From a virus (taxonomy: Duplodnaviria > Heunggongvirae > Uroviricota > Caudoviricetes), in the IMG/VR virus record IMGVR_UViG_2778261064_000026, positions 1 to 43,389 of that record: a stretch of DNA of 43,389 bases; one strand, given 5' to 3'. Under the pieces are notes generated by a model. The model saw nothing but the letters and a program-made list of their open reading frames with translations, did not search any database and had not been told where the DNA came from. The position numbers were made by a program, and so were the translations under genes. Numbering within the stretch: position 1 is the first letter of the stretch; every line of letters begins with the position of its first letter. Positions 889 to 39,478 of this stretch are shown piece by piece.

Positions 889-2568
889 ATGAAAACTAAA
901 CTGTATTCGTATATTCGCTTCTCGTCTATGCGTCAGAATGATGGTTCGAGTTATGAACGACAAATCAGGATGGCGAGAGAGATTGCGGCAAAGTATGACC
1001 TTGAACTGGTAAATGATTATCAGGATCTGGGTGTATCTGCGTTTAAGGGTGCTAACTCTAAAACAGGGGCGCTATCTCGTTTCCTTGATGCAATTGGTAG
1101 ATCCGTTCCTGTTGGTAGCTGGCTATTCATCGAAAACTTGGACCGTTTATCCCGTGCCGATATTGTCAGTGCGCAGGAGTTATTCCTTTCAATCATCCGT
1201 AGGGGAATAACCATTGTTACTGGCATGGATAACAAGATCTACTCGCTGGATACTGTTACCGCTAATCCGATGGACCTGATGTTCTCCATCCTTTTATTCA
1301 TCCGTGGTAATGAGGAAAGTCAGACTAAGCGCAATCGTACTAATTCAAGCGCACTGATTAAGATTAAATCGCATCAAGAAAATCCCCAGAATCCGGCAGT
1401 GGCAATCGAGGAAGTTGGAAAGAATATGTGGTGGACTGATACCACTTCCGGTTATGTGCTGCCTCATCCGGTGTACTTCCCTGTTGTTCAGGAGATTGTG
1501 GAATTACGGAAGAATGGACGTTCAACCGCCGAAATACTGGATCACCTTAACGAGACATATGCACCACCACCAGCAGTAAGCAACAAGAAGCATTCAAAAT
1601 GGTCACGGGCAATGGTTGAAAGGTTGTTCCATACCCGCGCTTTGATTGGTATCAAGGAAGTCTCTGTAGATGGCGTTAACTATGAGTTAAAGGATTATTA
1701 CCCTCGTGTTATTGATGACCCTACGTTCTATCACCTTAAGAAAAATATTGGTGCTAGAGCATGGAACTTTGGAGACAAGGAAGAAGTTAAACCGATCCCC
1801 CTGCTTAGTGGTATTGGCCTATTGAAATGTGATCATTGCGGTTGCGCTATGGTTAAAGTGAAGGGAACAAACAAACGTTCTGACCAGTATCGTTATACAT
1901 GTGATGCGACCCGTTCACGTAGACTTGATTGCGAGCATCCAAACTGGAGTTTTCGAGGGGATCAATTAGAGAAAGCTGTATTGCAATTGCTGGCTGATAA
2001 AATCTGGATTGCTGAGGATAAGGCTAATCCGGTTCCGGCGTTGAAAGTACAGGTTGATGAAATATCACGCAAGATTGATAACCTGATTGCCCTTTCTGCT
2101 ATGACAGGAGCAACGAAGGAGCTAGCCGATCAGATTACTACCCTCAATAGCGAGCGTGAAACACTCTACAATCAGATCAAGATGGCAGAAGAGGAAATGT
2201 ATTCTGTTGACTCTCAAGGCTGGGAGAAGCTCGCAGAATTTGATTTAGAAGATGTTTATAACGAGGAACGACTAAAGGTCCGGTTTAAGATTAAGCAAGC
2301 TCTAAAGCGGATCGGGTGTAGCAGGATTGACAGAAACAAAAACTTGTTTGTACTGGAATACATCGATGGAAAGACCCAGAGAGTTGTAATAGAAAATTCA
2401 AGAGGAACGAGGAAAGGCCGGATATTCATTGATTTGAAAACTATCAATGATAGGCAGATTCTGGAGAGTAACGGGCTTGTTCTGCATCCATGTTTAGACA
2501 TGCTGACAGATAAGAACTGGAAACCAGAGGAGGAAATACCAGGTCCATTACAGGAATTTGGAATTTAA
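889..2568 (+). CDS. large serine recombinase (integrase/resolvase-type), 559 aa
   Basis: N-terminal YIRFSSMRQ catalytic-Ser motif and LDRLSR motif of serine recombinases; Cys-rich zinc-ribbon-like segment (CDHCGC...C...C); C-terminal coiled coil. Confidence 0.8.
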   Translation: MKTKLYSYIRFSSMRQNDGSSYERQIRMAREIAAKYDLELVNDYQDLGVSAFKGANSKTGALSRFLDAIGRSVPVGSWLFIENLDRLSRADIVSAQELFLSIIRRGITIVTGMDNKIYSLDTVTANPMDLMFSILLFIRGNEESQTKRNRTNSSALIKIKSHQENPQNPAVAIEEVGKNMWWTDTTSGYVLPHPVYFPVVQEIVELRKNGRSTAEILDHLNETYAPPPAVSNKKHSKWSRAMVERLFHTRALIGIKEVSVDGVNYELKDYYPRVIDDPTFYHLKKNIGARAWNFGDKEEVKPIPLLSGIGLLKCDHCGCAMVKVKGTNKRSDQYRYTCDATRSRRLDCEHPNWSFRGDQLEKAVLQLLADKIWIAEDKANPVPALKVQVDEISRKIDNLIALSAMTGATKELADQITTLNSERETLYNQIKMAEEEMYSVDSQGWEKLAEFDLEDVYNEERLKVRFKIKQALKRIGCSRIDRNKNLFVLEYIDGKTQRVVIENSRGTRKGRIFIDLKTINDRQILESNGLVLHPCLDMLTDKNWKPEEEIPGPLQEFGI

Positions 2569-2641: not shown

Positions 2642-3817
2642 TTAGGCAGCGTCTAAGAGAGTATTAAAGTATTCATCCATTAAATCAGGACTGTCGTCAT
2701 CAATACAGAAAAATTCCGGTTTATTGATGCCGTAGAAGTGAGTATGTAGCTTGAATGTATCGTCATCAAATACATCTTTCTGGGATACCCACATATTAGC
2801 CTCGTCCGGTTGATTGGTTAGGTAGTCATAAACCAGTTGCTGTAAGTGTGGTAACTCATCAATAGTCAGAGTTTCCGACCATCCATCCTTGAAATCTTTG
2901 TAGGGTGCTGCATGAGTCTTGAAGCGTTGTTTTACTTCATGCTCTAAATCAACGGCTTTCCAACCATCCTCAAACTCATGAGTAAAGATTAAGCGGTGAG
3001 TGAAGTTGCTCTTTCTGGTTTGCTCTCTCATTCGTTCTTCTGGTTTCCGGGTAGTGATTCCAAATTTAATAAATTTGTCATCTAATAATTGAATATAGAA
3101 ACTAGCCTTACCCTGATAAGTCCGGTTAGACAGTTGCACCAGTTGGTCTTTAATGCAAAGCGGACAAGTGAAAGAATCAGCACATCTTAAATGAGATTCC
3201 CATTCGTGATTATGTGTCTTGCAATAGGTTTTAAATTTAACATCCTTTAGGTGTGGGGTGTTTATGATGAATCCTTTGAAGGTGTAAGGCGTACTCTCGC
3301 AACGTGCATTGATGATTGTCTCTTTGTCCTTAATAACTTCATCAAAAGTCTTGCCACTTCTTACCCGTTGGGATTTTTCAGCCATACAGATTTTGCAATC
3401 AAAATCGAAATCATCTTTGAGAGCATGTAATAGAGATGGCGTCATGATTTGATTGTGTTCAGGGCACAAAACACGGGATTTTGTCTTGTTGCGCCCTTTC
3501 CATTCTCCTTGCCATCCGAGGAATTTCTTTCCCTTCTCATTACAACGAGATTCCATTTTCAACCATACAGCCTTTTCAGTCTGGAGTAACTCACCCCCGT
3601 TAGTATCTTCCAGTTTGCGTAATTTGTAGTCCTTATATTCTTGTGTATCTAAATTGTAGATTCGAAAGTAAGTGTGATTACCCTTCCACGGTAGGATAAA
3701 TCCACCAAATACGAAAGCAGGTTCCAGTTTAGCGATGATTCGTTGTTGGTACTCTTCCGGCGATAAACCGCGAGTTTTCTTAACAAAAGGAATTTCGGCA
3801 GCGTAAGCAAGTTTCAT
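2642..3817 (-). CDS. T5orf172 (GIY-YIG-like) domain protein with several Cys-pair zinc-finger-like motifs, about 391 aa from internal ATG
   Basis: FIKFGITTRKPEERMREQ motif; multiple CxxC/CxxH pairs; start moved to MKLAYAAE because of RBS gaggaaact; track ORF extends to 3928. Confidence 0.5.
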   Translation of the reverse strand: MKLAYAAEIPFVKKTRGLSPEEYQQRIIAKLEPAFVFGGFILPWKGNHTYFRIYNLDTQEYKDYKLRKLEDTNGGELLQTEKAVWLKMESRCNEKGKKFLGWQGEWKGRNKTKSRVLCPEHNQIMTPSLLHALKDDFDFDCKICMAEKSQRVRSGKTFDEVIKDKETIINARCESTPYTFKGFIINTPHLKDVKFKTYCKTHNHEWESHLRCADSFTCPLCIKDQLVQLSNRTYQGKASFYIQLLDDKFIKFGITTRKPEERMREQTRKSNFTHRLIFTHEFEDGWKAVDLEHEVKQRFKTHAAPYKDFKDGWSETLTIDELPHLQQLVYDYLTNQPDEANMWVSQKDVFDDDTFKLHTHFYGINKPEFFCIDDDSPDLMDEYFNTLLDAA

Positions 3818-3876
3818 AGTAGTTTCCTCTAAAATAATAAGCTCACTACTATTTATTAGAGAAAATTGTCTTACTA

Positions 3877-3904
3877 TTGCATTCTCTATCTGGATGTGTA
3901 CAAT
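3877..3904 (+). promoter_or_regulatory. sigma70-like promoter (TTGCAT, 16-nt spacer, TACAAT) for the 3971 gene
   Basis: hexamers read directly from sequence. Confidence 0.3.
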
Positions 3905-3970
3905 ACGCGACCCTAAATCCCAAACCAACCATATTGAGGTTATGCCTATAAGTTAAAAAGTGAGGTCTAT

Positions 3971-6031: not shown

Positions 6032-6063
6032 AAAAAAGCGCCCACTAGAGGCGCTTTAATTTT
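6032..6063. terminator. bidirectional terminator separating rightward block from leftward late operon
   Basis: aaagcgcccactagaggcgcttt hairpin flanked by A-run and T-run. Confidence 0.6.
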
Positions 6064-6415
6064 ATCCATTCCACCGTGATTTTTTTGATCTGGAATCAAT
6101 ATGCGTAAAGGTTTTATATTTGCCTAAGCCGTATTGAGTAGGATATTTCCCATCAAGATAAGCATGGACAATATCAGGGGAGACACCCTTGACCACAATG
6201 TCAGCCGCACGACCTCGAACGTGATAGCTGTTGGTTGCACCGCCTACATTCTTGTTATGAGTCGGACAACGGTTCCCACTGTTAATAATTACTGGTTTCC
6301 CGAAGTGTTCGCGTACATCCTCAAGAATCACCAGTAATTCAGCGTCGATTGTATCATAATCACATTTTCCGCATTTACATTTAAATTCCTTGCGAGAAAA
6401 ATGCTTACTTAACAT
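6062..6415 (-). CDS. peptidase M15-family cell-wall hydrolase (putative endolysin), 117 aa
   Basis: SGNRCPTHNKNVGGATNSYHVRGRAADIV and HID motifs typical of zinc D-Ala-D-Ala carboxypeptidase-like phage lysins. Confidence 0.6.
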   Translation of the reverse strand: MLSKHFSRKEFKCKCGKCDYDTIDAELLVILEDVREHFGKPVIINSGNRCPTHNKNVGGATNSYHVRGRAADIVVKGVSPDIVHAYLDGKYPTQYGLGKYKTFTHIDSRSKKSRWNG

Positions 6416-6424
6416 ATTACCCCC

Positions 6425-6772
6425 TTAGATCATTTCGAAGATATAACCAATAAAGCGCATACCCTTGATATAATAAGGAGCAGTGCCTACACACACCGCG
6501 CGTGCATCGCCCAGACAGTTAAAGCTATAAGGATTAACCACATCAACTTCTTGTCCTACACGAAAACGATACTTAGGACGTTTAGCCAATGTAGCGACAC
6601 AAAACACGGTCCCTTTTTCATGATCGCGGATACATTCTTTATATTGTTTATGTTTAACTCTCTTCGCCTCAAAATCATGTGTCATGGATTCTGGGCTAAT
6701 GCCATTAATAAAAATACCGGAAAGCTGATCGACCGGATAAGTAGGAAATTCAGTAAAAATATTTTTAGCCAT
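6425..6772 (-). CDS. hypothetical protein, 115 aa
   Basis: ORF track; in late operon. Confidence 0.4.
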   Translation of the reverse strand: MAKNIFTEFPTYPVDQLSGIFINGISPESMTHDFEAKRVKHKQYKECIRDHEKGTVFCVATLAKRPKYRFRVGQEVDVVNPYSFNCLGDARAVCVGTAPYYIKGMRFIGYIFEMI

Positions 6773-6810
6773 GTTATACCCCCATAAGATTCTATGAGGG
6801 TATTTATGGA

Positions 6811-7494
6811 TTAAACGTATCTCATGCGCGATTTAATGTGCTTATTAATGTTCTTAAGCATCATTTCCTCGTTGCTTTCCCACGATCCTAGCGTCGAATA
6901 ACGAGTAGAAATTTTATCTGACTTAACGGCAACAATTCGCTTGCTCTGTTTCTGTATGCGTTTCTCTAAGCGACGTTTTGCCACCGCCGATCCATTCCTA
7001 GCGCGTTTGGTTCGGGATTTCTTAGGCTTGTACTTCTTCATGATAAAAGTCCCTTCCTTGTTCTCTACCTTGATGAAGTTGCCATTTTCGATGTTACGCA
7101 TCATCTTACCGCCTTTAATGGCCTTAATGTTCCCGTGGGAGTCTAAGACCTTACCGTTAGCTATTGGCACTAGCTTATTGATTTTGCCACCATCGAAATA
7201 GTGTTTCAGATAGTCGTCTTGACTGCCGATCTTCTTGTCCTTATCCCTTGCGCCCTTGATGAAGATTTGGTGTCTCGTCCCTGATCGGTTCTTGTAGTTG
7301 GTATTACCTACAGCTTGCTGAGTCCAGCGAGTAGGTCTATCAACATTCTTGTTAATCTTCTTCTGGAGTGCTCTGGAAGCAAAGATCGCCCCTTCCCCTA
7401 TCGCCCTTTCGAATGTATCGGTTGCTTTATCAGTCCATTGGCGTAACGCTTTCTTAGTCCTTAGAGCGTTTCGTTTATTGGTACTGGTTGCCAT
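6811..7494 (-). CDS. very basic hypothetical protein, 227 aa (K/R-rich)
   Basis: ORF track; RBS agggggc; composition. Confidence 0.4.
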   Translation of the reverse strand: MATSTNKRNALRTKKALRQWTDKATDTFERAIGEGAIFASRALQKKINKNVDRPTRWTQQAVGNTNYKNRSGTRHQIFIKGARDKDKKIGSQDDYLKHYFDGGKINKLVPIANGKVLDSHGNIKAIKGGKMMRNIENGNFIKVENKEGTFIMKKYKPKKSRTKRARNGSAVAKRRLEKRIQKQSKRIVAVKSDKISTRYSTLGSWESNEEMMLKNINKHIKSRMRYV

Positions 7495-7495
7495 G

Positions 7496-7666
7496 TTAGC
7501 CCCCTAATAACGAAAAGACCCCCGCCAGTGTCCTTAGCAATTGCTCATCCACGGTCATAGCCGGGAGTTCAAGCCCAAAGGACGTTAGCAGAGGTCTAAT
7601 TGCTACGTTATAAGTGAGGGCGATAATCAAGAGATAACCAAAATATTTCTTAAGTTTATTCTTCAT
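7496..7666 (-). CDS. small single-pass membrane protein, 56 aa (holin-like candidate)
   Basis: hand-translated MKNKLKKYFGYLLIIALTYNVAIRPLL...; RBS aaggggtg; overlaps next start. Confidence 0.3.
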   Translation of the reverse strand: MKNKLKKYFGYLLIIALTYNVAIRPLLTSFGLELPAMTVDEQLLRTLAGVFSLLGG

Positions 7667-7684
7667 ATATTCACCCCTTTATTA

Positions 7685-7963
7685 TTATTTTTGTTTGAGT
7701 ATGTCGAGAACTTGGTCAAATTTGGCGTCCATCGCAACCACTTTCTTCTCTATACCGTGTAGTGTTTGTTCCATGCGATAAACTCTCTCGGCGATCTGGT
7801 CGTGGTTACTTTGCATTGTTTCAAACTTCTGATTAAACAATGCATCATTGGACTCTAATTTCGACAATCTATTTTCTGTTGCTAATTGATTTCGGTGAAG
7901 TCTCCAAAGACCACCACAAATTAAGGCGATAACACCGATACCGCCATATATAATTTCAGTCAT
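7685..7963 (-). CDS. N-terminal TM plus coiled-coil protein, 92 aa (i-spanin-like or holin-like)
   Basis: IIYGGIGVIALICGGLW hydrophobic segment followed by heptad-like region. Confidence 0.4.
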   Translation of the reverse strand: MTEIIYGGIGVIALICGGLWRLHRNQLATENRLSKLESNDALFNQKFETMQSNHDQIAERVYRMEQTLHGIEKKVVAMDAKFDQVLDILKQK

Positions 7964-8065: not shown

Positions 8066-11000
8066 TTAAGAAACAGAAATACCAGTAGCGGCTTTCTTAG
8101 TTACCATTACCGTTAGATCGCTGATCCATGTGCTGGGAGTCCAGTTGTTGATTGCGCTTGAACTTACTTCAAAAGTTAGCGTAACTGGTCCGTGTCCGGC
8201 TGGCATATCAATAACAGCACTATACAATCCAGTCTGTCTACCATATGCACGGTTATATAATTCAGCACCGTTCTTGCGAACAATCAAGCGACAGTTATCA
8301 TAGTAAGTATTGTTATTCGAGCCTTCACGCGCATTAAGACCACCAAAGCTAATAGCCGGAACGATAATCTGACGATCAAACGGGTGATCATCTTCAATTC
8401 GAACAGTGATTGTACCTTGCGGATAACCGGGATAGCCCAATGATGGGTTTTCGTCCCAATGTGGGAATCGACGACCAATAGCTTTCACGAAGTCACCACG
8501 CACCTGATTAGCATCAAGCATACCCAAAATGCGGCAACTTGAATTAATCGTTACGTTGTTCATTTCGCCGGAATCAGCCACCAAATGACCACGAATATTA
8601 GCGTGTCTAAAATGACAAGTGCCATCTTTGCCGATATACCATCCATCGTTACCATTCCAGTTATAAGACTGGATATAGTTACCAATTTTAGCATTATCGA
8701 TAGAGCCATCAATGATATGACCTGTTCCGATCTGTGCGTGTTGGATGTGAGCGCCGTTAATCTGGGCTGTGCCGATTTTAGCCGTGGTGATACTAGCATC
8801 ACTAATCTGGGCTGTGCCAATTGCAGCATTACGAATCATCGCATTATCGAGATAAACTTTGTTATCTTCGATACCAAACGGGCATACTTCCGATCCGTTC
8901 TGTGGAGCTACCGCGATTTTATCAGCCGTAAAGATGATTCTCGTCGGTTGCGCCGGATCGTTGGTTGCGCTCATATGAATACCAGCCACGCGACCATCTG
9001 CATTAACCGCCAGATTATATTTGCTGTTAATGGTTCCCTTCAAAGCATCGATTTTTACATCTGCTTCCTGATTCACACCAGCAATCTTGCCATCCATTTC
9101 TACCCGAACTTGGTCGATCTTACTTGCGCTTGCTGCCTCACTGGTAGCAATTGCTTGTTTCAGGGTAGTAGCAGATGCGCTAACTTCATTGGTGATATCG
9201 CCTTTCAGTTCAGCTTTAACCTGATCAATCTTAGTGGAGCTAGCTTGCTCGCTGGTAGCAATCAGACTCTTGAGAGTATCGGCTGAGGCTTGGACCGTCT
9301 GCCCTGTCTCGGTAGTAATCTGTTTATGCATTGCATCAATCTTAGCATCGGCATTAGCGCCAGCTTGAGCAATAGCATCCGCGATGGTTTCATCTAAGCG
9401 ATCTTGTAAACCAATCAGGTCTTCAAGTGCTTCTTTGTCCTGATCGTCCCAGCTAATGGTAGATTTCATTTGCATGAAATACGGTTCAGACCAAACAGCA
9501 TCATCCATACCGAAAATATCGTAGTGAGCACCACGGATATAATAATCACCGTCAGCCAAATCAAAGGAAGTATGACTAACGCTATTGGTAGTCACTGCCC
9601 TTGCATCTGAGAAAGTGTTATCGGTTGCATACTGGATGATTGACCCTGCATAGTCATGTTCTACGTCATCCGCCCAGCTAACAAACGCAGTATTAAAGCC
9701 ACCACGCGCACTAAAACCTTTCATCGGCTTATGTTGTTGGTTGATAGCCACTAAACGCGCTGGGGCGCTCTCTGAGTTGTTATAGCCCTTAACGGATACT
9801 TCTACCGTCAGTTCACGGGAAAGGCCGTTAAACTGGTTCATATCAAGCGTATAGGTCCATGATTCAGGATCGCGGGTACGGTACTGAATAGACTTACCAG
9901 CCTTGTTAGTTACCTTGATAATGTAGGCTTCAAACAGGTCACTAAACTTGTTAGTTTCACCGTTGATAACCACATCTAAGGCTTGCTGATTTTCCCATTC
10001 GATAATCAGATCATTGCCTTCAAAAGTTCCTGGTGTGCTACCCTGATTTTTGATGCGGATCACTGGCGTAGGCAGTTCATAGGTAACTTCTGGATTCTGG
10101 TTAACCAGTTCCACCCATTCGGAACGAGCAATAATACCGAAAGCACAAACGCGGTAATCGTAGGAACGATCTTTTGCCAGTGCATTGATATTGAAAATTT
10201 GCTGTGAAGTCTGTCCCAGCTTAATCCAGTTAGGTGATCCACTCACACGATAATCAATCTGGAAACCGTAGCGGTTAAAATCTTCCGGTGCGTCCCATGT
10301 CAAAGTTACGTTTTTACCGTGGATTGTCTCACCAGTTGCCTTAATTCTGAAATTAGTCGGTTTCTGTACTGTCATTGAATCCGGTAAACCGGTAGGTCTA
10401 TTGTCTGGAGTCGCCGCATAGTTCAGGTCAGTATAAACCTGAGAATTATATTCTGTGGCGGTGATAGTCATCATCCCAGCAATACCAGAATCAATCGAGC
10501 GATCAATTGCAGTAATGCGCCAAAGTGAATTATTCAGTTTCAATTCATCATAGGTAACGCTAATAACATCCCACACTTCGGCAGTGAATGCGTCAGTAGT
10601 CATGAAGCTGATAACCTGAGTGATACGAGATTTATTTCGCTCAATGCTCGCGAGTTTATCAATCTGGGCTTTAGACTTAACAAAACGATATTCAATATCT
10701 TTAGCGATAATTCGACCATCTTGACGAATAGTAGCATCGTTTTCAGCATCAGCCGGATAACGTAGCATTTGCTCGGAATAGTCAATTGATGGTTCTTGAT
10801 ACATCGCGTTAATGGTATTGAAATAACCGTTAGTGCCACCTGTTTTCAGTGATACTTTACCCATCATAATATTGTCTTCATTGAAGGTATGCTTAACAAT
10901 ATCAGGAGCATCCAGTTTCAGGGTAATTCTTCCGAAGGATTCGAACATTACCCCGCCGAAAGTCTGCATAAGGCTAGTCAAGTTCTCTTTAAAGCTGGCG

Positions 11001-11842
11001 TTCGGATCACATGCACCGTTTGAATGCAAATCCATCTGGCGTACTTGCTTACGTACTTTCAGGAATGAATCAACGTTAATGTTTTCAATTGGTACTGATA
11101 GACCATATTTTTCATTTGTTAGGTAATGGAAAATCTGGTCCACGCCGTTAGTGCTTGCCTCAATAGCATTGGTTTCGAGGTTACGGATTTTTAAGCCCAT
11201 AACATCGACCGCTACCTGGCTATTAGGCTGGAGAATATCAACACCAGCAGCCAAAGATTTGTCATCACGACGTAAAACAATACACATGGTCGCAATGCCG
11301 TTACCCTGATACCGATCATCCCAATCTGCGCCCAAATGATGTTTAGCTAAATCCAATGCGGTGTTAGGATTTTTACCCGTGCGAAACTCGACTTCTAACA
11401 CTTTGCGGTATTCTTCTTTAATGTTTCCTTTATCGAGAACACCATCACGAATTGTCATATTCTGGCTAATGAGAACATTTTTATTATCGATGTGCAGTGC
11501 TTTAAAGTGATCGATCTCACCTTCTGAAATAGCAAAAATTTGTACCAGTTTGTTGTTTTCACGCTGTGAAATTGCTTTGTAAACGCAGATTGCACCCGTG
11601 CGGGTAGTACCGAAAAGGACGGGTAATACTGTCTTAGGATCGTTTGATGTTCCTAGTGTCACCGCATTATCTGGGCTTTGTACTTTAGGTGTTTTTGGTG
11701 CGCCTACAGTGGAAGCGATCAAGGTCATTGCACCAGCAGCCATACCGATAGCGACTGCGGTCATAACAGAAAATGTTGCAGCAGCAGCCATCCCAGCAGA
11801 CGCACCAGCAATAACCGCGCCTACCAATACTTCAAATCCCAT
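8066..11842 (-). CDS. central tail fiber / tip attachment protein J-like, 1258 aa, with lambda-J-like C-terminal receptor-binding domain
   Basis: C-terminal segments TVRIEDDHPFDRQIIVP, VIDMPAGHGPVTLTF and VMVTKKAATGISVS match my recollection of lambda gpJ C-terminus; size and position after K-like gene. Confidence 0.8.
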   Translation of the reverse strand: MGFEVLVGAVIAGASAGMAAAATFSVMTAVAIGMAAGAMTLIASTVGAPKTPKVQSPDNAVTLGTSNDPKTVLPVLFGTTRTGAICVYKAISQRENNKLVQIFAISEGEIDHFKALHIDNKNVLISQNMTIRDGVLDKGNIKEEYRKVLEVEFRTGKNPNTALDLAKHHLGADWDDRYQGNGIATMCIVLRRDDKSLAAGVDILQPNSQVAVDVMGLKIRNLETNAIEASTNGVDQIFHYLTNEKYGLSVPIENINVDSFLKVRKQVRQMDLHSNGACDPNASFKENLTSLMQTFGGVMFESFGRITLKLDAPDIVKHTFNEDNIMMGKVSLKTGGTNGYFNTINAMYQEPSIDYSEQMLRYPADAENDATIRQDGRIIAKDIEYRFVKSKAQIDKLASIERNKSRITQVISFMTTDAFTAEVWDVISVTYDELKLNNSLWRITAIDRSIDSGIAGMMTITATEYNSQVYTDLNYAATPDNRPTGLPDSMTVQKPTNFRIKATGETIHGKNVTLTWDAPEDFNRYGFQIDYRVSGSPNWIKLGQTSQQIFNINALAKDRSYDYRVCAFGIIARSEWVELVNQNPEVTYELPTPVIRIKNQGSTPGTFEGNDLIIEWENQQALDVVINGETNKFSDLFEAYIIKVTNKAGKSIQYRTRDPESWTYTLDMNQFNGLSRELTVEVSVKGYNNSESAPARLVAINQQHKPMKGFSARGGFNTAFVSWADDVEHDYAGSIIQYATDNTFSDARAVTTNSVSHTSFDLADGDYYIRGAHYDIFGMDDAVWSEPYFMQMKSTISWDDQDKEALEDLIGLQDRLDETIADAIAQAGANADAKIDAMHKQITTETGQTVQASADTLKSLIATSEQASSTKIDQVKAELKGDITNEVSASATTLKQAIATSEAASASKIDQVRVEMDGKIAGVNQEADVKIDALKGTINSKYNLAVNADGRVAGIHMSATNDPAQPTRIIFTADKIAVAPQNGSEVCPFGIEDNKVYLDNAMIRNAAIGTAQISDASITTAKIGTAQINGAHIQHAQIGTGHIIDGSIDNAKIGNYIQSYNWNGNDGWYIGKDGTCHFRHANIRGHLVADSGEMNNVTINSSCRILGMLDANQVRGDFVKAIGRRFPHWDENPSLGYPGYPQGTITVRIEDDHPFDRQIIVPAISFGGLNAREGSNNNTYYDNCRLIVRKNGAELYNRAYGRQTGLYSAVIDMPAGHGPVTLTFEVSSSAINNWTPSTWISDLTVMVTKKAATGISVS

Positions 11843-12276
11843 TATTCACCCCCGAATCTATAAACTTGTTCATATTCAATGTCTGAAACAGGAATGGTCA
11901 TCCAGATACCATCTTCTTCAACGAGGCCATAACCGGAATAATGAGGAACTACGGAATAATATTTGCGGTTCCCTAATTTGTGGGCTGTGACCAGTAAGTC
12001 GCCGTCCTGTAAATCATCAGTGACTAATTTGAAATGTTTCTTAATTGGTTGAAGGATATTTGAATACCCGCTTAATTCTTTGCAGATTTTCAAGCCTTCT
12101 TCTTTAGTTGAATATTTTTTATAAAGAGAATTATATAGGTCAGTACCAGCGAGAATATCGATGATCTTACATGCAATTAGATTGCAATCATTCTCGCCTT
12201 GAACGAACTCCTGACCTATTAAAGAATTGATGTAATCAGTGATAAGCCTAGTTTTTAGCATGTTGAATACCTCCAT
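11842..12276 (-). CDS. tail assembly protein K-like (NlpC/P60-type Cys-His peptidase fold), 144 aa
   Basis: GENDCNLIAC Cys motif and downstream His; TAATG overlap with J-like start. Confidence 0.5.
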   Translation of the reverse strand: MEVFNMLKTRLITDYINSLIGQEFVQGENDCNLIACKIIDILAGTDLYNSLYKKYSTKEEGLKICKELSGYSNILQPIKKHFKLVTDDLQDGDLLVTAHKLGNRKYYSVVPHYSGYGLVEEDGIWMTIPVSDIEYEQVYRFGGE

Positions 12277-12307: not shown

Positions 12308-13078
12308 TTATTTCTTGAAGTCTTCGTACATTCTACGAAGGTTGTATTTTGGATGGCCTAAGCTAACCATGATTTGACTCAATTTAACCGCGCCGGGTTT
12401 ACCGTTTTCAATCCACACGCGCCGGATTTCATCGTAATGCTGCCAACAGCCTTGACCTTTAGCAATACGTATAGAATGTGTATATTTCTTGGTAGAGCTT
12501 TCTGGTCGCTTGCGCCCTAGATGTGCTTTTCTAATCTTTTCGCGTGTTTCTTCTGATACAGGTTTACCATAACGGGGGTTATTCTCTCCACGAGTAGCAG
12601 CCGATAATTTAGCTAATATTTCTGGGTTTGTTACTTTTTTGCCTCTCATTGCACTAGGTTTACCATAGCGATGGTTCTTTTCACCCATTCGAGATGCCGA
12701 CATTTTAGCTCTAGATTCCGGTGTATGTTTTCTTCCGTAAAAAGGATGATTTTCACCACCATCAAAACCACCGACACCACCAGGAGCTATATTAAGACAT
12801 ACACCACGCCCCCATTTTTCGCGTGCTGCCTCCACTAACAGGATTTCACATTCAAACGCTTCCTCGGCAGTATCAAACAATTTTGAACGAACAACTTCAA
12901 ATTCATATATCGGGGTTTCTGATTCTTTATTTTTACGCTTCATCATTTTAATAACTTTACCCGATCCCACATATCCATCGTCTAGATTTGTGGTTGTTCT
13001 TTTTCCGACGTAATGATAGATTTTACCAGAGCGATTAGATTTAATAGTGGTGTGATAAACGTAATGGAATTTTTGCAT
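12308..13078 (-). CDS. GIY-YIG homing endonuclease with NUMOD3-type DNA-binding repeats, 256 aa
   Basis: N-terminal YHYVYHTT...GKIYHYVGKR...GYVGSG GIY-YIG motif; three repeats HPFYGRKHTPESRAK / NHRYGKPSAMRGKK / NNPRYGKPVSEETREKIRKAH. Confidence 0.75.
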   Translation of the reverse strand: MQKFHYVYHTTIKSNRSGKIYHYVGKRTTTNLDDGYVGSGKVIKMMKRKNKESETPIYEFEVVRSKLFDTAEEAFECEILLVEAAREKWGRGVCLNIAPGGVGGFDGGENHPFYGRKHTPESRAKMSASRMGEKNHRYGKPSAMRGKKVTNPEILAKLSAATRGENNPRYGKPVSEETREKIRKAHLGRKRPESSTKKYTHSIRIAKGQGCWQHYDEIRRVWIENGKPGAVKLSQIMVSLGHPKYNLRRMYEDFKK

Positions 13079-13152: not shown

Positions 13153-13806
13153 TTATTTTTTAGACGAGTGCCAGCGGCTTTCGCTATTCCACTTCCCGGC
13201 ACGAGAGAAGAATAGATCATTCTCGTTTCCAACATAGGATCGGTGGATACCATCGGAGGCATGACTTCGAGCGTTTTTATCTAGAACTTCCCAGATACTA
13301 TTAAGCTGAAATTCTGATTCGTTTTTACACTCATCATATTCATGTTCGATGTTAATCCCGATGGAATCGACTACCCCACGGAAAACAGGGTAAGTGGTTT
13401 CAACCTTGCCCGTGTTAGGGTTCAGGAACACCATTTCGATTTTCACATCTGATTTATCGAATTGCTTGTTTCGAATCAGGGTAATGTATTCCTCGCGAAC
13501 GTTAGAAACGGTTACGTTAATCCCGTTGTTGTTGATCTCCTTCTCTTCGGTATTCGATGAGATTTGAAGAAAATCACCCGTTGCGAGATACGTAAATCCG
13601 TTATAGTCCAAATCGAAATACCCATCTGTAAGCCGTAGAACGTCCCCTGACGCTGTTATCACTTCGATAATGTGAAACATCGATCCAGTGGAAAAAAGCT
13701 GCGGTAGCGTCAATCTAGACACGTTCTGACCTGTCTGGTCGTTGTAGACCTCGATGAAGTCCAGATTAGTACATAGTTGGCTGAATGATTCCTGAATAGT
13801 TGCCAT
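13153..13806 (-). CDS. minor tail protein (L-like position), about 217 aa from MATIQ
   Basis: position between tape measure and K/J genes; start chosen at ATG overlapping upstream stop; track ORF extends to 13860. Confidence 0.4.
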   Translation of the reverse strand: MATIQESFSQLCTNLDFIEVYNDQTGQNVSRLTLPQLFSTGSMFHIIEVITASGDVLRLTDGYFDLDYNGFTYLATGDFLQISSNTEEKEINNNGINVTVSNVREEYITLIRNKQFDKSDVKIEMVFLNPNTGKVETTYPVFRGVVDSIGINIEHEYDECKNESEFQLNSIWEVLDKNARSHASDGIHRSYVGNENDLFFSRAGKWNSESRWHSSKK

Positions 13807-14402
13807 TATACATTCTCCACTAATTCGAATTTCATCTTGCCAATCTGGGCGATCTTCCAATCGATATTTTCAGTTTTGAGAACAAATTCACCTTCTACGT
13901 TCTGATACTTGATCACCTCACCCGCCAGGACGTTCTGACGCAAGTTAGGGAAGAGTTTCATTTCACCGCCTGATTTCACGTCTTCGGTGATCGTGTAGAT
14001 TTTCTTGTGGTTCTCAAACTGTACAATCGTTCCCGCTTTCAGTGTTCCGGTGAAGTTGGAGATTCTCACCTTACGCCCACCGCGAGCAGTACCAGCAGCA
14101 GCCGTAACCATCTGGCGTACATCACCTGTATATTTTGAAAAGTAAGACAGTGGCACACTAAAAGGACGACCAAAAAGGTGACGTGCTACAAATTCTTTTA
14201 CTTCGTTAATATCCTGAGCCATGAAATTAGCTGTAAATTCTGCTTCATAAAAATGAATACCAGTAAAGCGACGCTGGAACTTACCAGAAATAGATTGCGC
14301 CTTGAAGAAAGGTTGTTTTGATTTAAGAGTAAAATCTGTGATTTTAATATTTTTGGATTTGAACATAGAAAAAGCCCCCATAGTTTTATGATTATTTATC
14401 AC
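13806..14402 (-). CDS. minor tail protein (M-like/distal tail position), 198 aa or shorter; start uncertain
   Basis: immediately downstream of tape measure; hairpin 14372-14414 overlaps 5' end so true start may be ATG at about 14381 or 14366. Confidence 0.4.
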   Translation of the reverse strand: MINNHKTMGAFSMFKSKNIKITDFTLKSKQPFFKAQSISGKFQRRFTGIHFYEAEFTANFMAQDINEVKEFVARHLFGRPFSVPLSYFSKYTGDVRQMVTAAAGTARGGRKVRISNFTGTLKAGTIVQFENHKKIYTITEDVKSGGEMKLFPNLRQNVLAGEVIKYQNVEGEFVLKTENIDWKIAQIGKMKFELVENV

Positions 14403-14417
14403 TATGAGGGCTTTTAA

Positions 14418-16772
14418 TTACATCTTACGGCGCTGTGCGTCTTCTACCGCCTGAGCAACTAACTTAGCATGACGTTTGATAGCATCCATGACCATCTTGT
14501 CTGAGCTATTAACGTTGCCGTTAATGTTCAAAGGTGCGTTAACTTCAATCGGCTGAGAGTTACCACCGCCTGATTTTTGAGCAGATAAGAAGTCTTTCAA
14601 ATCACCGTTAGTACGCTGATCAACTACTCGTTCACCCTTATCAAGCAGCCATGTACCCTCACGCGGGATGTTATCGATACCATCATGAGCCATACCGCTA
14701 ACGTTAGTAGACTTGATGTTTGCGATGTTCCCCATGTTCTGAGAAACAGCCAATGCAGCAGCCGCGATTTTTTGACCTGTGGTTACGTTGGTCGGATCGT
14801 TCCATGCATCGGTAGCAGCCGTCCACATGTTCACCGTCGCTTGTCCAATAGAGAATGCTTTATGAGCAGTGAAAGCCATCTGCATAGCTTTAGTGTTTTC
14901 CTGCCCGAAGAGAGTCATTGCAGCAGCAAAACCGCCATACATATCATCAGCTATTGACTGACGAGCATCAGCATATTTCTTCTCAATTGCAGCCATTCGT
15001 TTTTGATGGTTTTCATTGAGTTTTTCTAATTCTTCCATCCGTTTAGCCGGATCGGTGATCCCATCAATCTTGATTTTACCGGTCTTATAATCTTGTTCCG
15101 CTTCCGATTTCTCTTTATCGATTGCATTAAATTTAGCAAACGGATCATTTGGATCTTGATAGTCTAAGCTATTGGTCAACTGATTGGTTTTAAAACCATC
15201 CATTCCATGCAAAGAATCTTCAATCTGTGAATAACTTTGCTCGGTATCATTCACACGACGCATATATTCTTCGTAGGAGATAGCTTTACCATCAAGTAAC
15301 CGTTTATGGCTTTCTAACTCGTTGTCCCTGATTTGTTGCAAAACTGTTAAGGCATTCAAAGCATCAACCGGATCAGCACCCAGCATCATTTTATAGATGT
15401 TTTCTGCGTTCTGGTCTAACAGTTGCTGACGTTTAGCGGCTGCGTCTTGCTGTGAGATTAAGCCCAGATCTAAAGCAGTGTCCAAATCTTTCAAGCTGGC
15501 TTCTAACTGCTTGTTTTGAGAAGCAATAGACGCGGCTGTCTGTCCTTGCAATTTAACATCAAGAGCATTCAGTCGCTTGATTGCATCCTCGCGTGCTTTC
15601 TGTGCTTTTTCTGCGGCTTCCTTAGCCTTTTTAGCTGCCTCTTCCGCTTTCTTCTTGGCTTCTTCTTGTTCTTTTTTTGTTGGACCAGTGACGCCTCCAC
15701 CTTGACCCGTTGGGGTAAATCCAGTATCCGATTTATTTCCAGTGATAGTAATTACCGGATCGCCGTTTTTATCACGGGTAACTCCTTCACTATCCACCCA
15801 ACGATCAGGATAATTTGGTTTATTGTTGAAGCTGGCTTGTCCACCTGCTAGACCAGTAGAACTATAACCATGCTTGTTAATAAAACCACCGTTAGCCATA
15901 GCCATATTCTGGCGAGCTTTTTCAAACCTTTCATTAAACGTCTTTAATGCGTTGAATAAAGCGGTCTTTTCCCAATCTTTATCAAACCAGTTGTATAACT
16001 TGTTCATCCCTTCAACAACTGGATTTAGCGCATTTGCTGCCATACCCTTTAAGTTATCGGTAAGGGTATCCATATTTTTAGAGAATTTATTATATTCTTC
16101 GGCTGTATCATTGGTGATTTTAACAGTTTGCTGATTAATGGCGTTTACAGCTTCCTGATAAGATCCGTATTTCTGCAATTCATCAGCCATATGACTTGAA
16201 TCACTGGCTAACGATTCCATCATAAACTTAACATCAGCGATAGACGCACCAGCCTTGCGCATATCATAGAAGACCTTGATTGCCGCTTTCATCCCGCCTT
16301 GTGGATCGTTCATAAACTCGGCATAATCTTTAATCTTCAAACCTACACTTTCTAGGTCGTCTTCAATACCGCCACCGTTACGCCATGCATCAGCCAGTTT
16401 ATCTAAGGTGTCTTTGTTAATATCACCAAATTTCTCAACGGTTAAGCCAGTGCCAGAGAATTGCTTCTCTAATTTCTGGAGTGTTTCGACGGTTAAACCA
16501 GTTGCTTTTGAAACTTCGCTGTATTCCTTTACATAATCACCGATGGCATTTGCAGCAGAGACAGCACCAGCAGCCAGACCAACAAAACCACCAGCAGCCA
16601 AAGCAAGCGATCCACCAGTTCCGCGAAGGGTTCCACTTAAACTAGATAAACCACCAGACAAATCAAGATTCATTGCCCTTTCTGAAAGGTTATCAAGCAT
16701 GTCAATCGCTTGGTTGGTACTTCTCCTTAGACCGTCGTTATTCCCTTCTATTGTTACTATATGTTTTGTCAT
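14418..16772 (-). CDS. tail tape measure protein, 784 aa
   Basis: size, position after chaperone pair, long coiled-coil/low-complexity stretch KKEQEEAKKKAEEAAKKAKEAAEKAQKARE. Confidence 0.8.
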   Translation of the reverse strand: MTKHIVTIEGNNDGLRRSTNQAIDMLDNLSERAMNLDLSGGLSSLSGTLRGTGGSLALAAGGFVGLAAGAVSAANAIGDYVKEYSEVSKATGLTVETLQKLEKQFSGTGLTVEKFGDINKDTLDKLADAWRNGGGIEDDLESVGLKIKDYAEFMNDPQGGMKAAIKVFYDMRKAGASIADVKFMMESLASDSSHMADELQKYGSYQEAVNAINQQTVKITNDTAEEYNKFSKNMDTLTDNLKGMAANALNPVVEGMNKLYNWFDKDWEKTALFNALKTFNERFEKARQNMAMANGGFINKHGYSSTGLAGGQASFNNKPNYPDRWVDSEGVTRDKNGDPVITITGNKSDTGFTPTGQGGGVTGPTKKEQEEAKKKAEEAAKKAKEAAEKAQKAREDAIKRLNALDVKLQGQTAASIASQNKQLEASLKDLDTALDLGLISQQDAAAKRQQLLDQNAENIYKMMLGADPVDALNALTVLQQIRDNELESHKRLLDGKAISYEEYMRRVNDTEQSYSQIEDSLHGMDGFKTNQLTNSLDYQDPNDPFAKFNAIDKEKSEAEQDYKTGKIKIDGITDPAKRMEELEKLNENHQKRMAAIEKKYADARQSIADDMYGGFAAAMTLFGQENTKAMQMAFTAHKAFSIGQATVNMWTAATDAWNDPTNVTTGQKIAAAALAVSQNMGNIANIKSTNVSGMAHDGIDNIPREGTWLLDKGERVVDQRTNGDLKDFLSAQKSGGGNSQPIEVNAPLNINGNVNSSDKMVMDAIKRHAKLVAQAVEDAQRRKM

Positions 16773-37226: not shown

Positions 37227-38204
<978 letters not shown>

Positions 38205-38530: not shown

Positions 38531-38635
38531 CCCTTCCAGACAGTATGCCATCGGGTATGCCATCTGAAACCGGTTTATATGCCCCGCGATCATATCTTAT
38601 CGGACAATTTCCGATCTTTGAGCATACTGGCAAAG

Positions 38636-39478
38636 CTATACTGCCAGCATATCAGGATAGTGTTTTGCGATAATATCATTCAGTCTGTCAACCAGTTCTG
38701 GTTTTCTGAACGTGATATGCGCGGAGCCCTTCTTAAAGTATCTGATGCTGAACATCTCATCTTCATAGCTCTCTTTACCCTGAACAGACTGAATGTGATC
38801 ATCCAGACGAAGGGTGATGTTTCCCCGGTTGTCGGGGATTGGTTTACCGCTGAACAGGTGCAACATTCTTTCCAGATCGGCGAGTCGGTCAGCCTGTTGT
38901 CCGGTGATAAGATGAAATCCCCACCGGTCCCATCTCACCAGATTGTTGACGATAATTTTACTGCCAAATTTACAGGGGCAATTGGTTTTGTAATTCCAGT
39001 TCAGCCCTCTGAAGACGTTGATCACCCCTCGCTCAAACACCTCATCCTTATTCTGGTGCAGTTGTTCAAATGTGCTCAGAATGTTCGCTTCGCTGATTTC
39101 CGGAAAATTATCGTACTCCAGTGACCGGTACCATGTATCACGGGCCTGCGTATCCATTAATGACAGCATCCCGGAACGTTGCATCAGGTCACGCCAGATT
39201 TCGCGATCAAGATTCCGGGTAATGGCTTTCATTGCTGTTTCGGGTTTCTCCATCAGCCAGCAGCCGCAGCGAAAATCCTGTTTCATGGCCCAGTCCGGGG
39301 CAGTTTTACCTCCGATGCTTTCCGTCAGCACCGAGATTTCAGCCAGTTGTCGGATAAGTGTGTCGATTTGCAACAGTGTACTCTTTCGTACAGCCAGAAT
39401 GTGGCGAATGCTGGTTGAGCAGATAACGTCCGTATGCCCGTTGACCACTTCCGGACGGGAGATTGTGATATCTGACAT
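38636..39478 (-). CDS. DUF4942-type island protein, 280 aa
   Basis: recollection of conserved gene set of CP4-type E. coli islands; position beside toxin-antitoxin module. Confidence 0.45.
   Translation of the reverse strand: MSDITISRPEVVNGHTDVICSTSIRHILAVRKSTLLQIDTLIRQLAEISVLTESIGGKTAPDWAMKQDFRCGCWLMEKPETAMKAITRNLDREIWRDLMQRSGMLSLMDTQARDTWYRSLEYDNFPEISEANILSTFEQLHQNKDEVFERGVINVFRGLNWNYKTNCPCKFGSKIIVNNLVRWDRWGFHLITGQQADRLADLERMLHLFSGKPIPDNRGNITLRLDDHIQSVQGKESYEDEMFSIRYFKKGSAHITFRKPELVDRLNDIIAKHYPDMLAV

What the first reader, a model, noticed from the sequence alone, without database searches (positions are those of the whole stretch)
8066..8830. Central tail fiber with a lambda-J-type C-terminal receptor-binding domain on an otherwise dissimilar protein
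The last about 250 aa of the 1258-aa tip protein contain segments that I recall as near-identical to the lambda gpJ C-terminus, which binds LamB. The N-terminus (Gly/Ala-rich hydrophobic MGFEVLVGAVIAGASAGMAAAATF...) does not look like lambda J. This suggests modular exchange of the receptor-binding domain and predicts LamB as the receptor.
Basis: partly seen in the sequence, partly recalled or inferred. Interest (0 to 1): 0.45.

Follow-up and report, generated by a model that had tools for sequence, protein, structure and literature searches.

The report
Prophage tail tip with lambda-type receptor domain
The tail-tip protein of an uncharacterised E. coli prophage ends in a receptor-binding domain of the family found in phage lambda's J protein, but it is only about 42% identical to lambda's and looks more like relatives that bind the porin OmpC, so LamB is probably not its receptor.

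Summary
The 1258-aa ORF (window 8066..11842, minus strand) is real. Its last ~190 aa are homologous to the lambda J C-terminus: BLASTP 42% identity over 186 aa, E=9e-35; Pfam Ig_GpJ_C 125 bits. "Near-identical" is wrong. Only two identical runs of 5 aa or more exist (DDHPFDRQI, DMPAG), and both are invariant across the whole family.

Module exchange is well supported. Relatives with 80-97% identical bodies carry other Ig_GpJ_C alleles (49-66%) or, in Salmonella, an unrelated 152-aa C-terminus. The switch occurs at a conserved GD(F/I)V motif. The exchange is old: there is no DNA similarity to lambda J, and GC3 matches the phage.

The LamB prediction is not supported. The receptor domain is about equally distant from all characterised alleles (42-49%). 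Three characterised alleles (434; phi330; PDB 9WCB "A8 gpJ") bind OmpC. Two phi330 hairpins predicted to contact OmpC have counterparts here (INNWTP vs ANNWTP); lambda's differ.

The "un-lambda-like" N-terminus matches the hydrophobic plug part of lambda gpI, fused to a T5-pb3-like hub. The host phage is a GC-41% serine-recombinase prophage with RcGTA/R4C-like structural genes, found in about 1% of complete E. coli genomes.

This is an ordinary new member of a known domain family.

The parts
8066..11842 (-). Whole gene: 1258-aa central tail fibre / baseplate hub protein (J-like).
   Evidence: ORF list and translation. Its ATG overlaps the stop codon of the upstream DUF6950 gene. PGAP names the 99%-identical copy in strain KSC64 'phage tail tip domain-containing protein'.
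8069..8497 (-). Receptor-binding domain, aa 1116-1258: Ig_GpJ_C family, the 143-aa allele.
   Evidence: Pfam PF12421 E=2e-36. AF2 pLDDT is 75-96 over this part. Foldseek hits 8xcj, 9wca and 9wcb. Alignment with characterised alleles.
8483..8497 (-). GDFVK junction motif, aa 1116-1120: the hinge and recombination boundary between fibre shaft and receptor domain.
   Evidence: P0140, P0115 and others are 100% identical up to this motif and 64-66% after it. DCP80, Salmonella and lambda also switch at GDIV or VGDI.
8417..8470 (-). Variable loop L1, aa 1125-1142 (RFPHWDENPSLGYPGYPQ). It is 8 aa longer than in A8/phi330 and 4 aa longer than in lambda.
   Evidence: Alignment. Loop assignment is inferred from AF2 strand positions.
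8297..8338 (-). Variable loop L2, aa 1169-1182 (LNAREGSNNNTYYD). It is the counterpart of phi330 hairpin E953-S962, which is predicted to point into the OmpC barrel.
   Evidence: Alignment. Hairpin description in PMC12502783.
8231..8245 (-). Variable loop L3, aa 1200-1204.
   Evidence: Alignment; AF2 strands.
8120..8155 (-). Variable loop L4, aa 1230-1241 (AINNWTPSTWIS). INNWTP matches the phi330/A8 hairpin ANNWTP at 5 of 6 positions; lambda has HSADIPP.
   Evidence: Alignment; PMC12502783.
8498..8641 (-). Base of the central straight fibre, aa 1068-1115, homologous to lambda J 947-990.
   Evidence: phmmer and BLASTP alignments. It recombines independently of the receptor domain.
8642..9052 (-). 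Tip fibre, aa 931-1067: Phage_Tail_Tip domain followed by short 'A.I..A.I' repeats.
   Evidence: Pfam PF09327 E=1e-18 at aa 932-1028. PDB hits to T1 and J-like tip proteins over aa 842-1016.
9053..9454 (-). Alpha-helical shaft, aa 797-930. It contains a 37-aa tandem duplication at aa 852-925 (window 9068..9289).
   Evidence: Self-offset 37 gives 21/37 identities, and 1221-aa natural variants lack exactly one unit. Helical character is inferred from the sequence and the AF2 helix at aa 931-942.
9455..10402 (-). Three fibronectin-III-like modules, aa ~481-796.
   Evidence: Weak Pfam fn3 hits in this protein's close homologues. The count of three is inferred from the repeated sequence pattern.
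10403..11557 (-). Baseplate hub domains, aa ~96-480, of the T5 pb3 / lambda J / RcGTA megatron type.
   Evidence: Profile A2 against the PDB: T5 pb3 E=3e-52, T1 6e-30, lambda J 8e-19. AF2 pLDDT is mostly 75-94 over aa 70-470 (two 10-residue blocks near 61-63, one at 69). Foldseek: T5 pb3 TM 0.68, lambda J 0.52-0.55, RcGTA 0.55.
11558..11842 (-). N-terminal gpI-like module, aa 1-95: a 45-aa uncharged Gly/Ala-rich hydrophobic stretch followed by APKTPKVQSPDN...VLPVLFGTTRTG.
   Evidence: Profile positions 6-103 match lambda gpI 112-220 at E=9e-6 against the whole PDB. The alignment shares APK.TP..Q..DN and VLPVLYG..R.G. E4 is the only charged residue in aa 1-49. The segment is conserved in distant homologues.
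11842..12276 (-). Upstream DUF6950 gene (144 aa), translationally coupled to the J-like gene.
   Evidence: Pfam PF22262 E=3e-12; PHROG 2134.
13153..13860 (-). Baseplate hub attachment protein, the counterpart of gpL / RcGTA g13.
   Evidence: Pfam PF09931; PHROG 2048 tail protein; PGAP DUF2163 in relatives.
13806..14402 (-). Distal tail protein.
   Evidence: PHROG 1302 E=5e-16.
14418..16772 (-). Tape measure protein.
   Evidence: PHROG 13674 E=3e-70.
18105..21533 (-). Fibre protein (1142 aa) with T-even gp34/gp37-like parts and a C-terminal S74 chaperone. It is probably the reversible-adsorption partner of the central fibre.
   Evidence: 82-87% nt identity to T-even distal long-tail-fibre genes. 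Pfam Gp34_trimer, gp37_trimer and Peptidase_S74.

Best explanation
The ORF encodes the trimeric central tail fibre and baseplate hub of an intact-looking temperate siphophage integrated in the E. coli chromosome.

From N- to C-terminus the protein has these parts:
- a gpI-like hydrophobic plug / membrane-insertion module
- a T5-pb3-like hub
- fibronectin-III-like modules
- a helical shaft
- a lambda-type tip fibre
- a 143-aa Ig-like receptor-binding domain of the Ig_GpJ_C family

The receptor domain is an exchangeable cassette joined at a conserved GD(F/I)V hinge. This lineage has swapped it repeatedly. The cassette family is shared with lambdoid J proteins through ancient, not recent, exchange.

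By homology with lambda, the inferred mechanism runs as follows. The three domains insert their four variable distal loops into a trimeric outer-membrane porin. This twists the fibre, releases the FN3 strings and opens the hub. The N-terminal hydrophobic plug then leaves the lumen and probably inserts in the outer membrane, ahead of the tape measure protein and the DNA.

The receptor is not established. My estimate is OmpC about 0.45, LamB about 0.15, and another outer-membrane protein about 0.4.
For: Shown:
- Domain family membership of the C-terminus.
- Mosaic structure within the lineage. Identity to the window for body / 50-aa stalk / receptor domain is 95-97/100/64-66 (P0115, P0140 and others), 94/56/49 (P0122), 84-88/56-60/79-88 (P0130 and others), 80/26/17-19 for Salmonella, which lacks PF12421, and 79/54/50 for Providencia.
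- DCP80 is 39% identical over aa 29-1119 and then unrelated.
- The exchange is old. GC3 of the domain is 0.35 against 0.35-0.43 for the rest of the gene, while lambda's domain has 0.555 total GC. Lambdoid gpJ genes in 5,426 E. coli genomes match only in 66-76% patches.
- Hub homology and gpI homology.
- Tail-gene context.

From the literature:
- Lambda's domain inserts loops L1-L4 into LamB and triggers fibre and hub rearrangement (PMC11101478).
- gpI is a hydrophobic plug equivalent to the T5 pb3 plug (PMC10721106).
- The RcGTA megatron has an N-terminal iris/penetration domain (PMC7296036).
- phi330 needs OmpC (PMC12502783).
- The PDB 9WCB title describes A8 gpJ bound to OmpC.

Inferred:
- The phi330/A8 hairpins ENFNSNNQQS and ANNWTP align with REGSNNN-T and INNWTP here.
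Against: - There is no experimental data for this phage. No trimer or complex model could be made.
- Loop L1 carries a unique 8-aa insertion relative to the OmpC binders.
- Loop identity to every characterised allele is low (18-29%).
- The L1-L4 assignment rests on a monomer AF2 model and alignment, not on coordinates.
- The phi330 contact hairpins come from an AlphaFold3 prediction in that paper, not from a solved structure.
- Gifsy-1 J binds OmpC, OmpX and BtuB (PMC12312913), though its C-terminus is only 18% identical to lambda's and I did not test whether it belongs to this family. So J tips as a class are not limited to porins.
- Whether the prophage is inducible is unknown.
Confidence: 0.8

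Rival explanations
1. One reading: the domain binds LamB, as lambda's does, so the phage needs maltoporin.
For: - It belongs to the same domain family as lambda J.
- LamB is used by lambda and by some non-lambdoid coliphages through their J proteins (PMC11893012).
- Lambda's loop L1 is intermediate in length between the OmpC binders and this protein.
Against: - Lambda is the least similar of the characterised alleles: 42-44% overall and 18% in the loops.
- The motifs that prompted the idea are invariant across the family.
- Lambda-like isolates whose domains differ by 40-60% have different host ranges (bioRxiv 10.1101/2020.06.25.171868).
- Three other characterised alleles bind OmpC.
Confidence: 0.15
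2. The domain binds OmpC, like the A8/phi330 and 434 alleles.
For: - The best PDB sequence hit is A8 gpJ (E=1e-50, against 5e-36 for lambda). Its complex entry is with OmpC (9wcb, TM 0.71, 50% identity in the aligned core).
- phi330, whose domain is nearly identical to A8's, requires OmpC, shown by knockout and complementation.
- L4 INNWTP matches ANNWTP at 5 of 6 positions, and L2 shares E..SNN.
Against: - Domain-only identity is just 47-49%.
- L1 has an 8-aa insertion, L3 differs and L2 is 3 aa shorter.
- OmpC is itself highly polymorphic, so strain specificity could differ.
Confidence: 0.45
3. The domain recognises a different outer-membrane protein (OmpF, PhoE, OmpA, BtuB or another), making it a new specificity class in the family.
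For: - This allele is at most 55% identical to any allele in the phage collection.
- At 80% nt identity or above it is confined to 28 complete genomes.
- Lambda J can evolve OmpF use through a few mutations (PMC11101478 discussion; bioRxiv 10.1101/2020.06.25.171868).
- Gifsy-1 J binds OmpX and BtuB as well as OmpC.
Against: There is no positive evidence for any particular alternative. The conserved L4 hairpin argues for an OmpC-like target.
Confidence: 0.35
4. The similarity reflects vertical descent of a conserved tip from a common J ancestor, with no exchange of modules.
For: The whole protein is a remote J/pb3 homologue with the same domain order: hub, FN3, shaft, tip fibre, receptor domain.
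Against: - The similarity gradient is inverted. In lambda-like phages the receptor domain is the fastest-evolving part, yet here it is the only part that BLAST detects.
- Close relatives with 80-97% identical bodies carry unrelated or 49-66% identical C-termini, with sharp breakpoints.
Confidence: 0.05

Closest known systems
Lambda gpJ C-terminal receptor-binding domain (Pfam PF12421 Ig_GpJ_C; PDB 8XCJ/8XCK)
   Same: - Same fold family, at the extreme C-terminus of the tip protein, preceded by the PF09327 tip fibre and a GD(I/F)V hinge.
- The invariant DDHxFDRQ, KNG and DMPAGxG motifs are present.
- 42% identity over 186 aa.
   Different: - The variable loops are 18% identical. L1 is 4 aa longer, L2 longer, and L4 unrelated (HSADIPP against INNWTP).
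- There is no DNA similarity.
- LamB binding cannot be inferred.
A8 gpJ (PDB 9WCA/9WCB, complex with OmpC of E. coli EDL933) and phage phi330 J (PV189401; OmpC-dependent)
   Same: - Best PDB sequence match (E=1e-50).
- 47-49% identity over the domain.
- The L4 hairpin is nearly identical and L2 shares the SNN motif.
   Different: - L1 here has an 8-aa insertion, and L2 is 3 aa shorter.
- Those domains sit on lambda-type J bodies.
- I could not find the paper describing A8.
T5 baseplate hub protein pb3 (PDB 7ZHJ) and lambda gpL+gpI+gpJ N-terminal region
   Same: - The hub domains are homologous: profile E=3e-52, Foldseek TM 0.68.
- The plug function lies in the same polypeptide as the hub, as in T5.
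   Different: - T5 pb3 carries no tip fibre or receptor domain. T5 uses pb4 and pb5.
- Here the gpL-like hub protein is still a separate gene, so the arrangement is intermediate between lambda (L, I and J separate) and T5 (all fused).
RcGTA megatron protein g15 and roseophage R4C tail tip (PDB 6TBA, 8GTC)
   Same: - N-terminal hydrophobic 'iris/penetration' segment on the hub protein.
- Same gene order: tape measure, distal tail protein, hub (DUF2163/PF09931), small protein, large tip protein.
- The capsid's nearest relatives, after DCP80, are R4C and Rhodobacter phages.
   Different: - The megatron ends in a fibre-binding domain and has no central fibre or Ig_GpJ_C domain.
- Sequence similarity is detectable only by fold comparison (TM 0.55).
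J proteins of non-lambdoid mEpimmI coliphages
   Same: The precedent is non-lambdoid temperate coliphages whose J protein determines use of LamB or OmpA, with a variable C-terminus (PMC11893012).
   Different: - It is a different phage lineage.
- I did not test whether their C-termini belong to PF12421.

Membership tests
Ig_GpJ_C receptor-binding domain (PF12421) | Pfam model matched above the gathering score over its full length | tested here: met
   125.4 bits against a cut-off of 26.2, model positions 2-135 of 135, aa 1123-1258.
Ig_GpJ_C receptor-binding domain (PF12421) | Ig-like beta-sandwich fold superimposable on solved gpJ domains | tested here: met
   AF2 pLDDT 75-96 in the domain. 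Foldseek gives 8xcj_F E=3e-21 and 9wcb_F TM(target) 0.71. The model is a monomer only.
Ig_GpJ_C receptor-binding domain (PF12421) | Family-invariant motifs (DDxxFDRQI, KNG, DMPxGxG) and position at the extreme C-terminus after a PF09327 tip fibre | tested here: met
   Invariant columns of alignment A1 are all present. Domain order is shown.
Ig_GpJ_C receptor-binding domain (PF12421) | Trimer that binds an outer-membrane protein and triggers DNA ejection | not testable with these tools
   Needs adsorption or binding experiments, or multimer modelling.
Lambda J (TipJ) orthologues | Lambda-type body domains FNIII-A_GpJ (PF24801), Ig_J (PF24421) and Ig_J_second (PF24489) | tested here: not met
   Lambda J hits all three at E<=1e-39. 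This protein hits none. BLASTP finds nothing outside aa 1073-1257.
Lambda J (TipJ) orthologues | Separate gpI plug protein encoded upstream of J | tested here: not met
   The gpI-like module forms aa 1-95 of the same polypeptide. The upstream gene is DUF6950.
LamB-specific receptor domains | Conservation of lambda's receptor-contacting loops L1-L4 | tested here: not met
   Loop identity to lambda is 18% of 50 columns, and L4 and L2 are unrelated. The loop boundaries are inferred.
LamB-specific receptor domains | LamB dependence of infection or adsorption | not testable with these tools
   Requires a lamB knockout assay.
Siphophage baseplate hub proteins (T5 pb3 / lambda J / megatron; Phage-tail_3) | Hub domains HDII-HDIV detectable by profile and by fold | tested here: met
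   Profile A2 against T5 pb3 E=3e-52 and lambda J 8e-19. Foldseek TM is 0.68 and 0.55. The single-sequence Pfam PF13550 hit is below cut-off at 19.9 against 23.
Siphophage baseplate hub proteins (T5 pb3 / lambda J / megatron; Phage-tail_3) | Encoded at the end of a tail module after the tape measure, distal tail protein and hub attachment protein | tested here: met
   Gene order 16772 to 8066 on the minus strand.

The most novel reading that the evidence does not exclude
This 143-aa allele, with its unique 8-residue insertion in loop L1, would define a new receptor specificity within the Ig_GpJ_C family, neither LamB nor OmpC. It sits on a previously undescribed GTA/R4C-like temperate phage lineage of Enterobacteriaceae. 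That lineage fuses the gpI plug to the hub and trades tip cassettes with lambdoid phages and fibre segments with T-even phages.
Probability: 0.3. Interest if true: 0.45.

Novelty: new member of a known kind. Interest (0 to 1): 0.3.

Why it matters
It gives a clean natural example of the J-type receptor domain acting as a portable cassette with a defined hinge, GD(F/I)V. The cassette works on tail-tip bodies that BLAST cannot relate to lambda J. That is useful for engineering host range by grafting at the hinge.

It is also a caution. Recognising lambda-like motifs does not predict LamB, because within this family OmpC is the more common known target.

The prophage lineage has no isolated close relative in the phage collection searched, yet it occurs in about 1% of complete E. 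coli genomes (many from pigs and ETEC) and in Salmonella. Knowing its receptor would help explain its host distribution.

Tried and rejected
- Megablast of the gene against 50,697 phage records found nothing. Only a protein search found a relative, DCP80 at 39%.
- The 20-kb structural region matched phages only through the T-even-like fibre segment.
- Four literature searches for the paper describing 'A8 gpJ' found nothing. Its receptor is taken from the PDB entry title only.
- The word-indexed protein search with the C-terminal 191 aa returned only short fragments at 63% identity or less and missed the full-length near-identical proteins. An early note that the best domain homologue was 59% identical was therefore wrong. 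Searches corrected it.
- Recent transfer from a lambdoid prophage is rejected. There is no nucleotide similarity, GC3 matches the phage, and lambdoid gpJ genes match only at 66-76% in short patches.
- H130 looked like the same C-terminal module in a different phage. It is a copy of the same prophage truncated by IS903B.
- The Salmonella 152-aa C-terminus has no relative among solved structures.
- The gpI match could have been a compositional artefact of a hydrophobic segment. I rejected that because the alignment includes the non-hydrophobic motifs APK.TP..Q..DN and VLPVLYG..R.G.
Full report
**The object.** Its ATG overlaps the stop codon of the upstream gene. It closes a tail module on the same strand:
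- tape measure protein, 14418..16772
- distal tail protein, 13806..14402
- hub attachment protein, 13153..13860 (PF09931; annotated DUF2163 in relatives)
- an inserted GIY-YIG homing endonuclease, 12308..13078
- a DUF6950 protein, 11842..12276

**The observation.** The C-terminus is homologous to lambda J.
- BLASTP against J of NC_001416 aligns aa 1073-1257 with J 952-1131: 78/186 identities (42%), E=9e-35. Nothing else in the two proteins is significant.
- Pfam Ig_GpJ_C (PF12421) covers aa 1123-1258 at 125 bits, against a cut-off of 26. Phage_Tail_Tip (PF09327) covers aa 932-1028.
- An AF2 model of aa 929-1258 is confident in the terminal domain (pLDDT 75-96). It finds the lambda and 'A8' gpJ fibres as its only strong PDB matches (E=3e-21 to 6e-18).

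'Near-identical' is an overstatement. The only identical runs of 5 aa or more are DDHPFDRQI and DMPAG. Both lie in columns that are invariant, or nearly so, in 45 family members. At the DNA level only a 26-nt patch matches lambda J.

**Where it comes from.** The window is E. coli chromosome.
- ghrA and a CbtA/CbeA-type island occupy the GC-rich right end.
- The rest is a GC-41% prophage with a large serine recombinase (889..2568), a gpA-type terminase, a portal and a protease-capsid fusion.
- The J-like gene occurs in 55 of 5,426 complete E. coli genomes, always next to the DUF6950 gene. The best match is 99% in porcine strain KSC64.
- No phage record matches at the DNA level.
- The closest phage protein is in the DCP80 record: 39% over aa 29-1119.
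- After DCP80, the capsid's next relatives are roseophage R4C and Rhodobacter phages at 27-29%. The structural module is therefore of the RcGTA/R4C type.

**Modular exchange.** I split each lineage member into body, 50-aa stalk and post-GDFV domain, and measured identity to the window protein.

| Members | Body | Stalk | Receptor domain | Note |
|---|---|---|---|---|
| P0115, P0119, P0125, P0127-9 | 95-97% | 100% | 64-66% | 133-aa allele; breakpoint exactly at GDFVK; P0140 has the same stalk and domain values with an 87% body |
| P0122, P0123 | 94% | 56-58% | 49% | third allele |
| P0130, P0131, P0141 and others | 84-88% | 56-64% | 78-88% | window-type 143-aa allele on a different stalk |
| Providencia P0162 | 79% | 54% | 50% | has PF12421 |
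| Salmonella, 24 clusters | 79-80% | 26-28% | 17-23% | unrelated 152-aa end, no PF12421, no solved relative |

DCP80 also diverges completely after ...ANKIEGDIV. Lambda has the same hinge (EKIVGDIVKA).

In lambda-like phages this domain is the fastest-evolving part of J: more than 97% identity in the body against 40-60% in the domain (bioRxiv 10.1101/2020.06.25.171868). Here it is the only part that BLAST can relate to lambda J. That inverted gradient, together with the sharp breakpoints, argues for cassette exchange rather than vertical descent.

The exchange with lambdoid phages is old.
- GC3 of the domain is 0.35, like the rest of the gene. Lambda's domain has 0.555 total GC.
- Lambdoid gpJ genes in E. 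coli genomes match only at 66-76% in short patches.

**The receptor.** This part of the interpretation does not hold. Domain-only identity to the window allele:

| Allele | Known receptor | Identity |
|---|---|---|
| lambda | LamB | 42-44% |
| 434 (lambda h434) | OmpC | 44-48% |
| A8 gpJ / phi330 | OmpC | 47-49% |
| phage 21 | not established here | 47-49% |
| PPompW / 640R1 | not known | 53-55% |

- PDB entry 9WCB is titled 'Open state of A8 gpJ 713 central tail fiber with OmpC G17 from E. coli EDL933'.
- Phage phi330, whose domain is almost identical to A8's, loses plating on an ompC knockout and regains it on complementation (PMC12502783).
- That paper also notes that the phi330, 434 and lambda domains share only 35-40% identity despite different receptors.

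So overall identity at this level does not predict the receptor, and OmpC is the commoner known target.

I assigned four variable loops from the AF2 strands. In those loops the window allele is 18% identical to lambda and 25-29% identical to the OmpC binders. The AlphaFold3 model in the phi330 paper describes two hairpins at the OmpC interface: E953-S962 points into the barrel and A1015-P1020 makes extensive contacts.
- E953-S962 (ENFNSNNQQS) aligns with REGSNNN-T here. Lambda has TVSGRT.
- A1015-P1020 (ANNWTP) aligns with INNWTP here. Lambda has HSADIPP.

Against a simple OmpC call, loop L1 carries an 8-aa insertion (ENPSLGYPGYPQ) that no characterised allele has. My estimate is OmpC 0.45, LamB 0.15, other 0.4.

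**The N-terminus.**
- The first 500 aa belong to a large family: 1,582 representatives at E<=1e-3. Many of them start with a similar Gly/Ala/Val-rich stretch.
- A profile of 17 diverse members hits T5 pb3 (E=3e-52), the T1 tip protein (6e-30), an F2-pyocin fibre, and lambda J residues 267-487 (8e-19).
- With profile positions 6-103, the same profile hits lambda gpI residues 112-220 (E=9e-6).
- The gpI alignment is not just hydrophobic composition. It shares APK.TP..Q..DN and VLPVL(Y/F)G..R.G.
- The AF2 model of aa 1-500 has pLDDT mostly 75-94 from about aa 70 to 470. It superposes on T5 pb3 (TM 0.68), lambda J (0.52-0.55) and the RcGTA tip (0.55).

In lambda, gpI is the 'insertion protein'. 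Its hydrophobic part plugs the tip lumen and may enter the outer membrane. Together gpL+gpI+gpJ-N are considered equivalent to T5 pb3 (PMC10721106; PMC11101478). The RcGTA megatron has an N-terminal iris/penetration domain (PMC7296036). This protein is therefore a gpI(C-terminal)-hub fusion, an arrangement between lambda's and T5's.

**Mechanism (inferred by homology).** A second fibre, 18105..21533, has 82-87% nt identity to T-even gp37 genes and carries an S74 chaperone domain. It probably mediates reversible adsorption, as Stf does in Ur-lambda (PMC12617516). The central fibre's trimeric domain then engages a porin. The fibre twists, the FN3 strings detach, the hub opens, and the N-terminal plug, the tape measure protein and the DNA leave. 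None of this has been tested for this phage.

**Verdict.** The exchange idea is right, and it happens routinely in this lineage. The LamB prediction is unsupported and probably wrong. PGAP and Pfam already recognise the domain, and J-type cassette mosaicism is well known. This is a new member of a known kind and of modest interest.

Noticed in passing
window 9068..9289 (aa 852-925 of the J-like protein): There is a 37-aa tandem duplication in the helical shaft (21/37 identical). Natural 1221-aa variants (P0121, P0124) lack exactly one unit, so fibre length varies in steps of one repeat.
   Followed up: yes
window 12308..13078 (-): A GIY-YIG homing endonuclease gene (PHROG 314, E=4e-32) is inserted between the hub gene and the DUF6950 gene. 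The 99%-identical prophage in strain KSC64 has only a 46-nt gap there. PGAP annotates the counterpart of a second ORF, 2642..3928, as a GIY-YIG nuclease.
   Followed up: partly
window 18105..21533 (-): A 1142-aa fibre gene lies between the head genes and the tail tube gene. It shares 82-87% nucleotide identity over up to 2.3 kb with distal long-tail-fibre (gp37) genes of virulent T-even phages. It carries Gp34_trimer, gp37_trimer and Peptidase_S74 domains. This looks like recent exchange between a temperate siphophage and Straboviridae.
   Followed up: partly
window 1..~37000; 889..2568 (+): The prophage (GC 0.41) has a large serine recombinase and sits next to ghrA (37227..38204). In KSC64 the other flank is ycdY plus a truncated gene, which suggests integration into ycdX. 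The attachment sites were not mapped.
   Followed up: no
window 23297..25306 (-): The capsid gene is a prohead protease-major capsid fusion (Peptidase_S78 + Phage_capsid). After DCP80, its nearest phage relatives are Dinoroseobacter phage R4C and Rhodobacter phages (27-29% aa). This indicates an RcGTA-like structural lineage living in Enterobacteriaceae.
   Followed up: partly
L002 (PQ671644, Escherichia phage DCP80, record 3763-37026): The record is filed under Straboviridae/Gaprivervirus and carries T4-type genes (motA, ndd, endonuclease VII). Its first ~23 kb is a siphovirus-type head-tail module related to this prophage. It is likely a chimeric assembly or an unusual hybrid.
   Followed up: no
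window 38600..43389: The GC-rich (0.48-0.55) right end carries CbtA/CbeA-type toxin-antitoxin genes and DUF932-like genes typical of CP4-type islands. These were recognised by eye from the translations and were not searched.
   Followed up: no
window 6062..7963 (-), downstream of the J-like gene: A probable lysis cassette follows the tip gene directly. It comprises a 92-aa protein with an N-terminal hydrophobic segment, two unknown ORFs and a Peptidase_M15 endolysin (E=4e-28). There is no lom-like or lipoprotein exclusion gene of the kind found downstream of J in lambdoid phages.
   Followed up: partly
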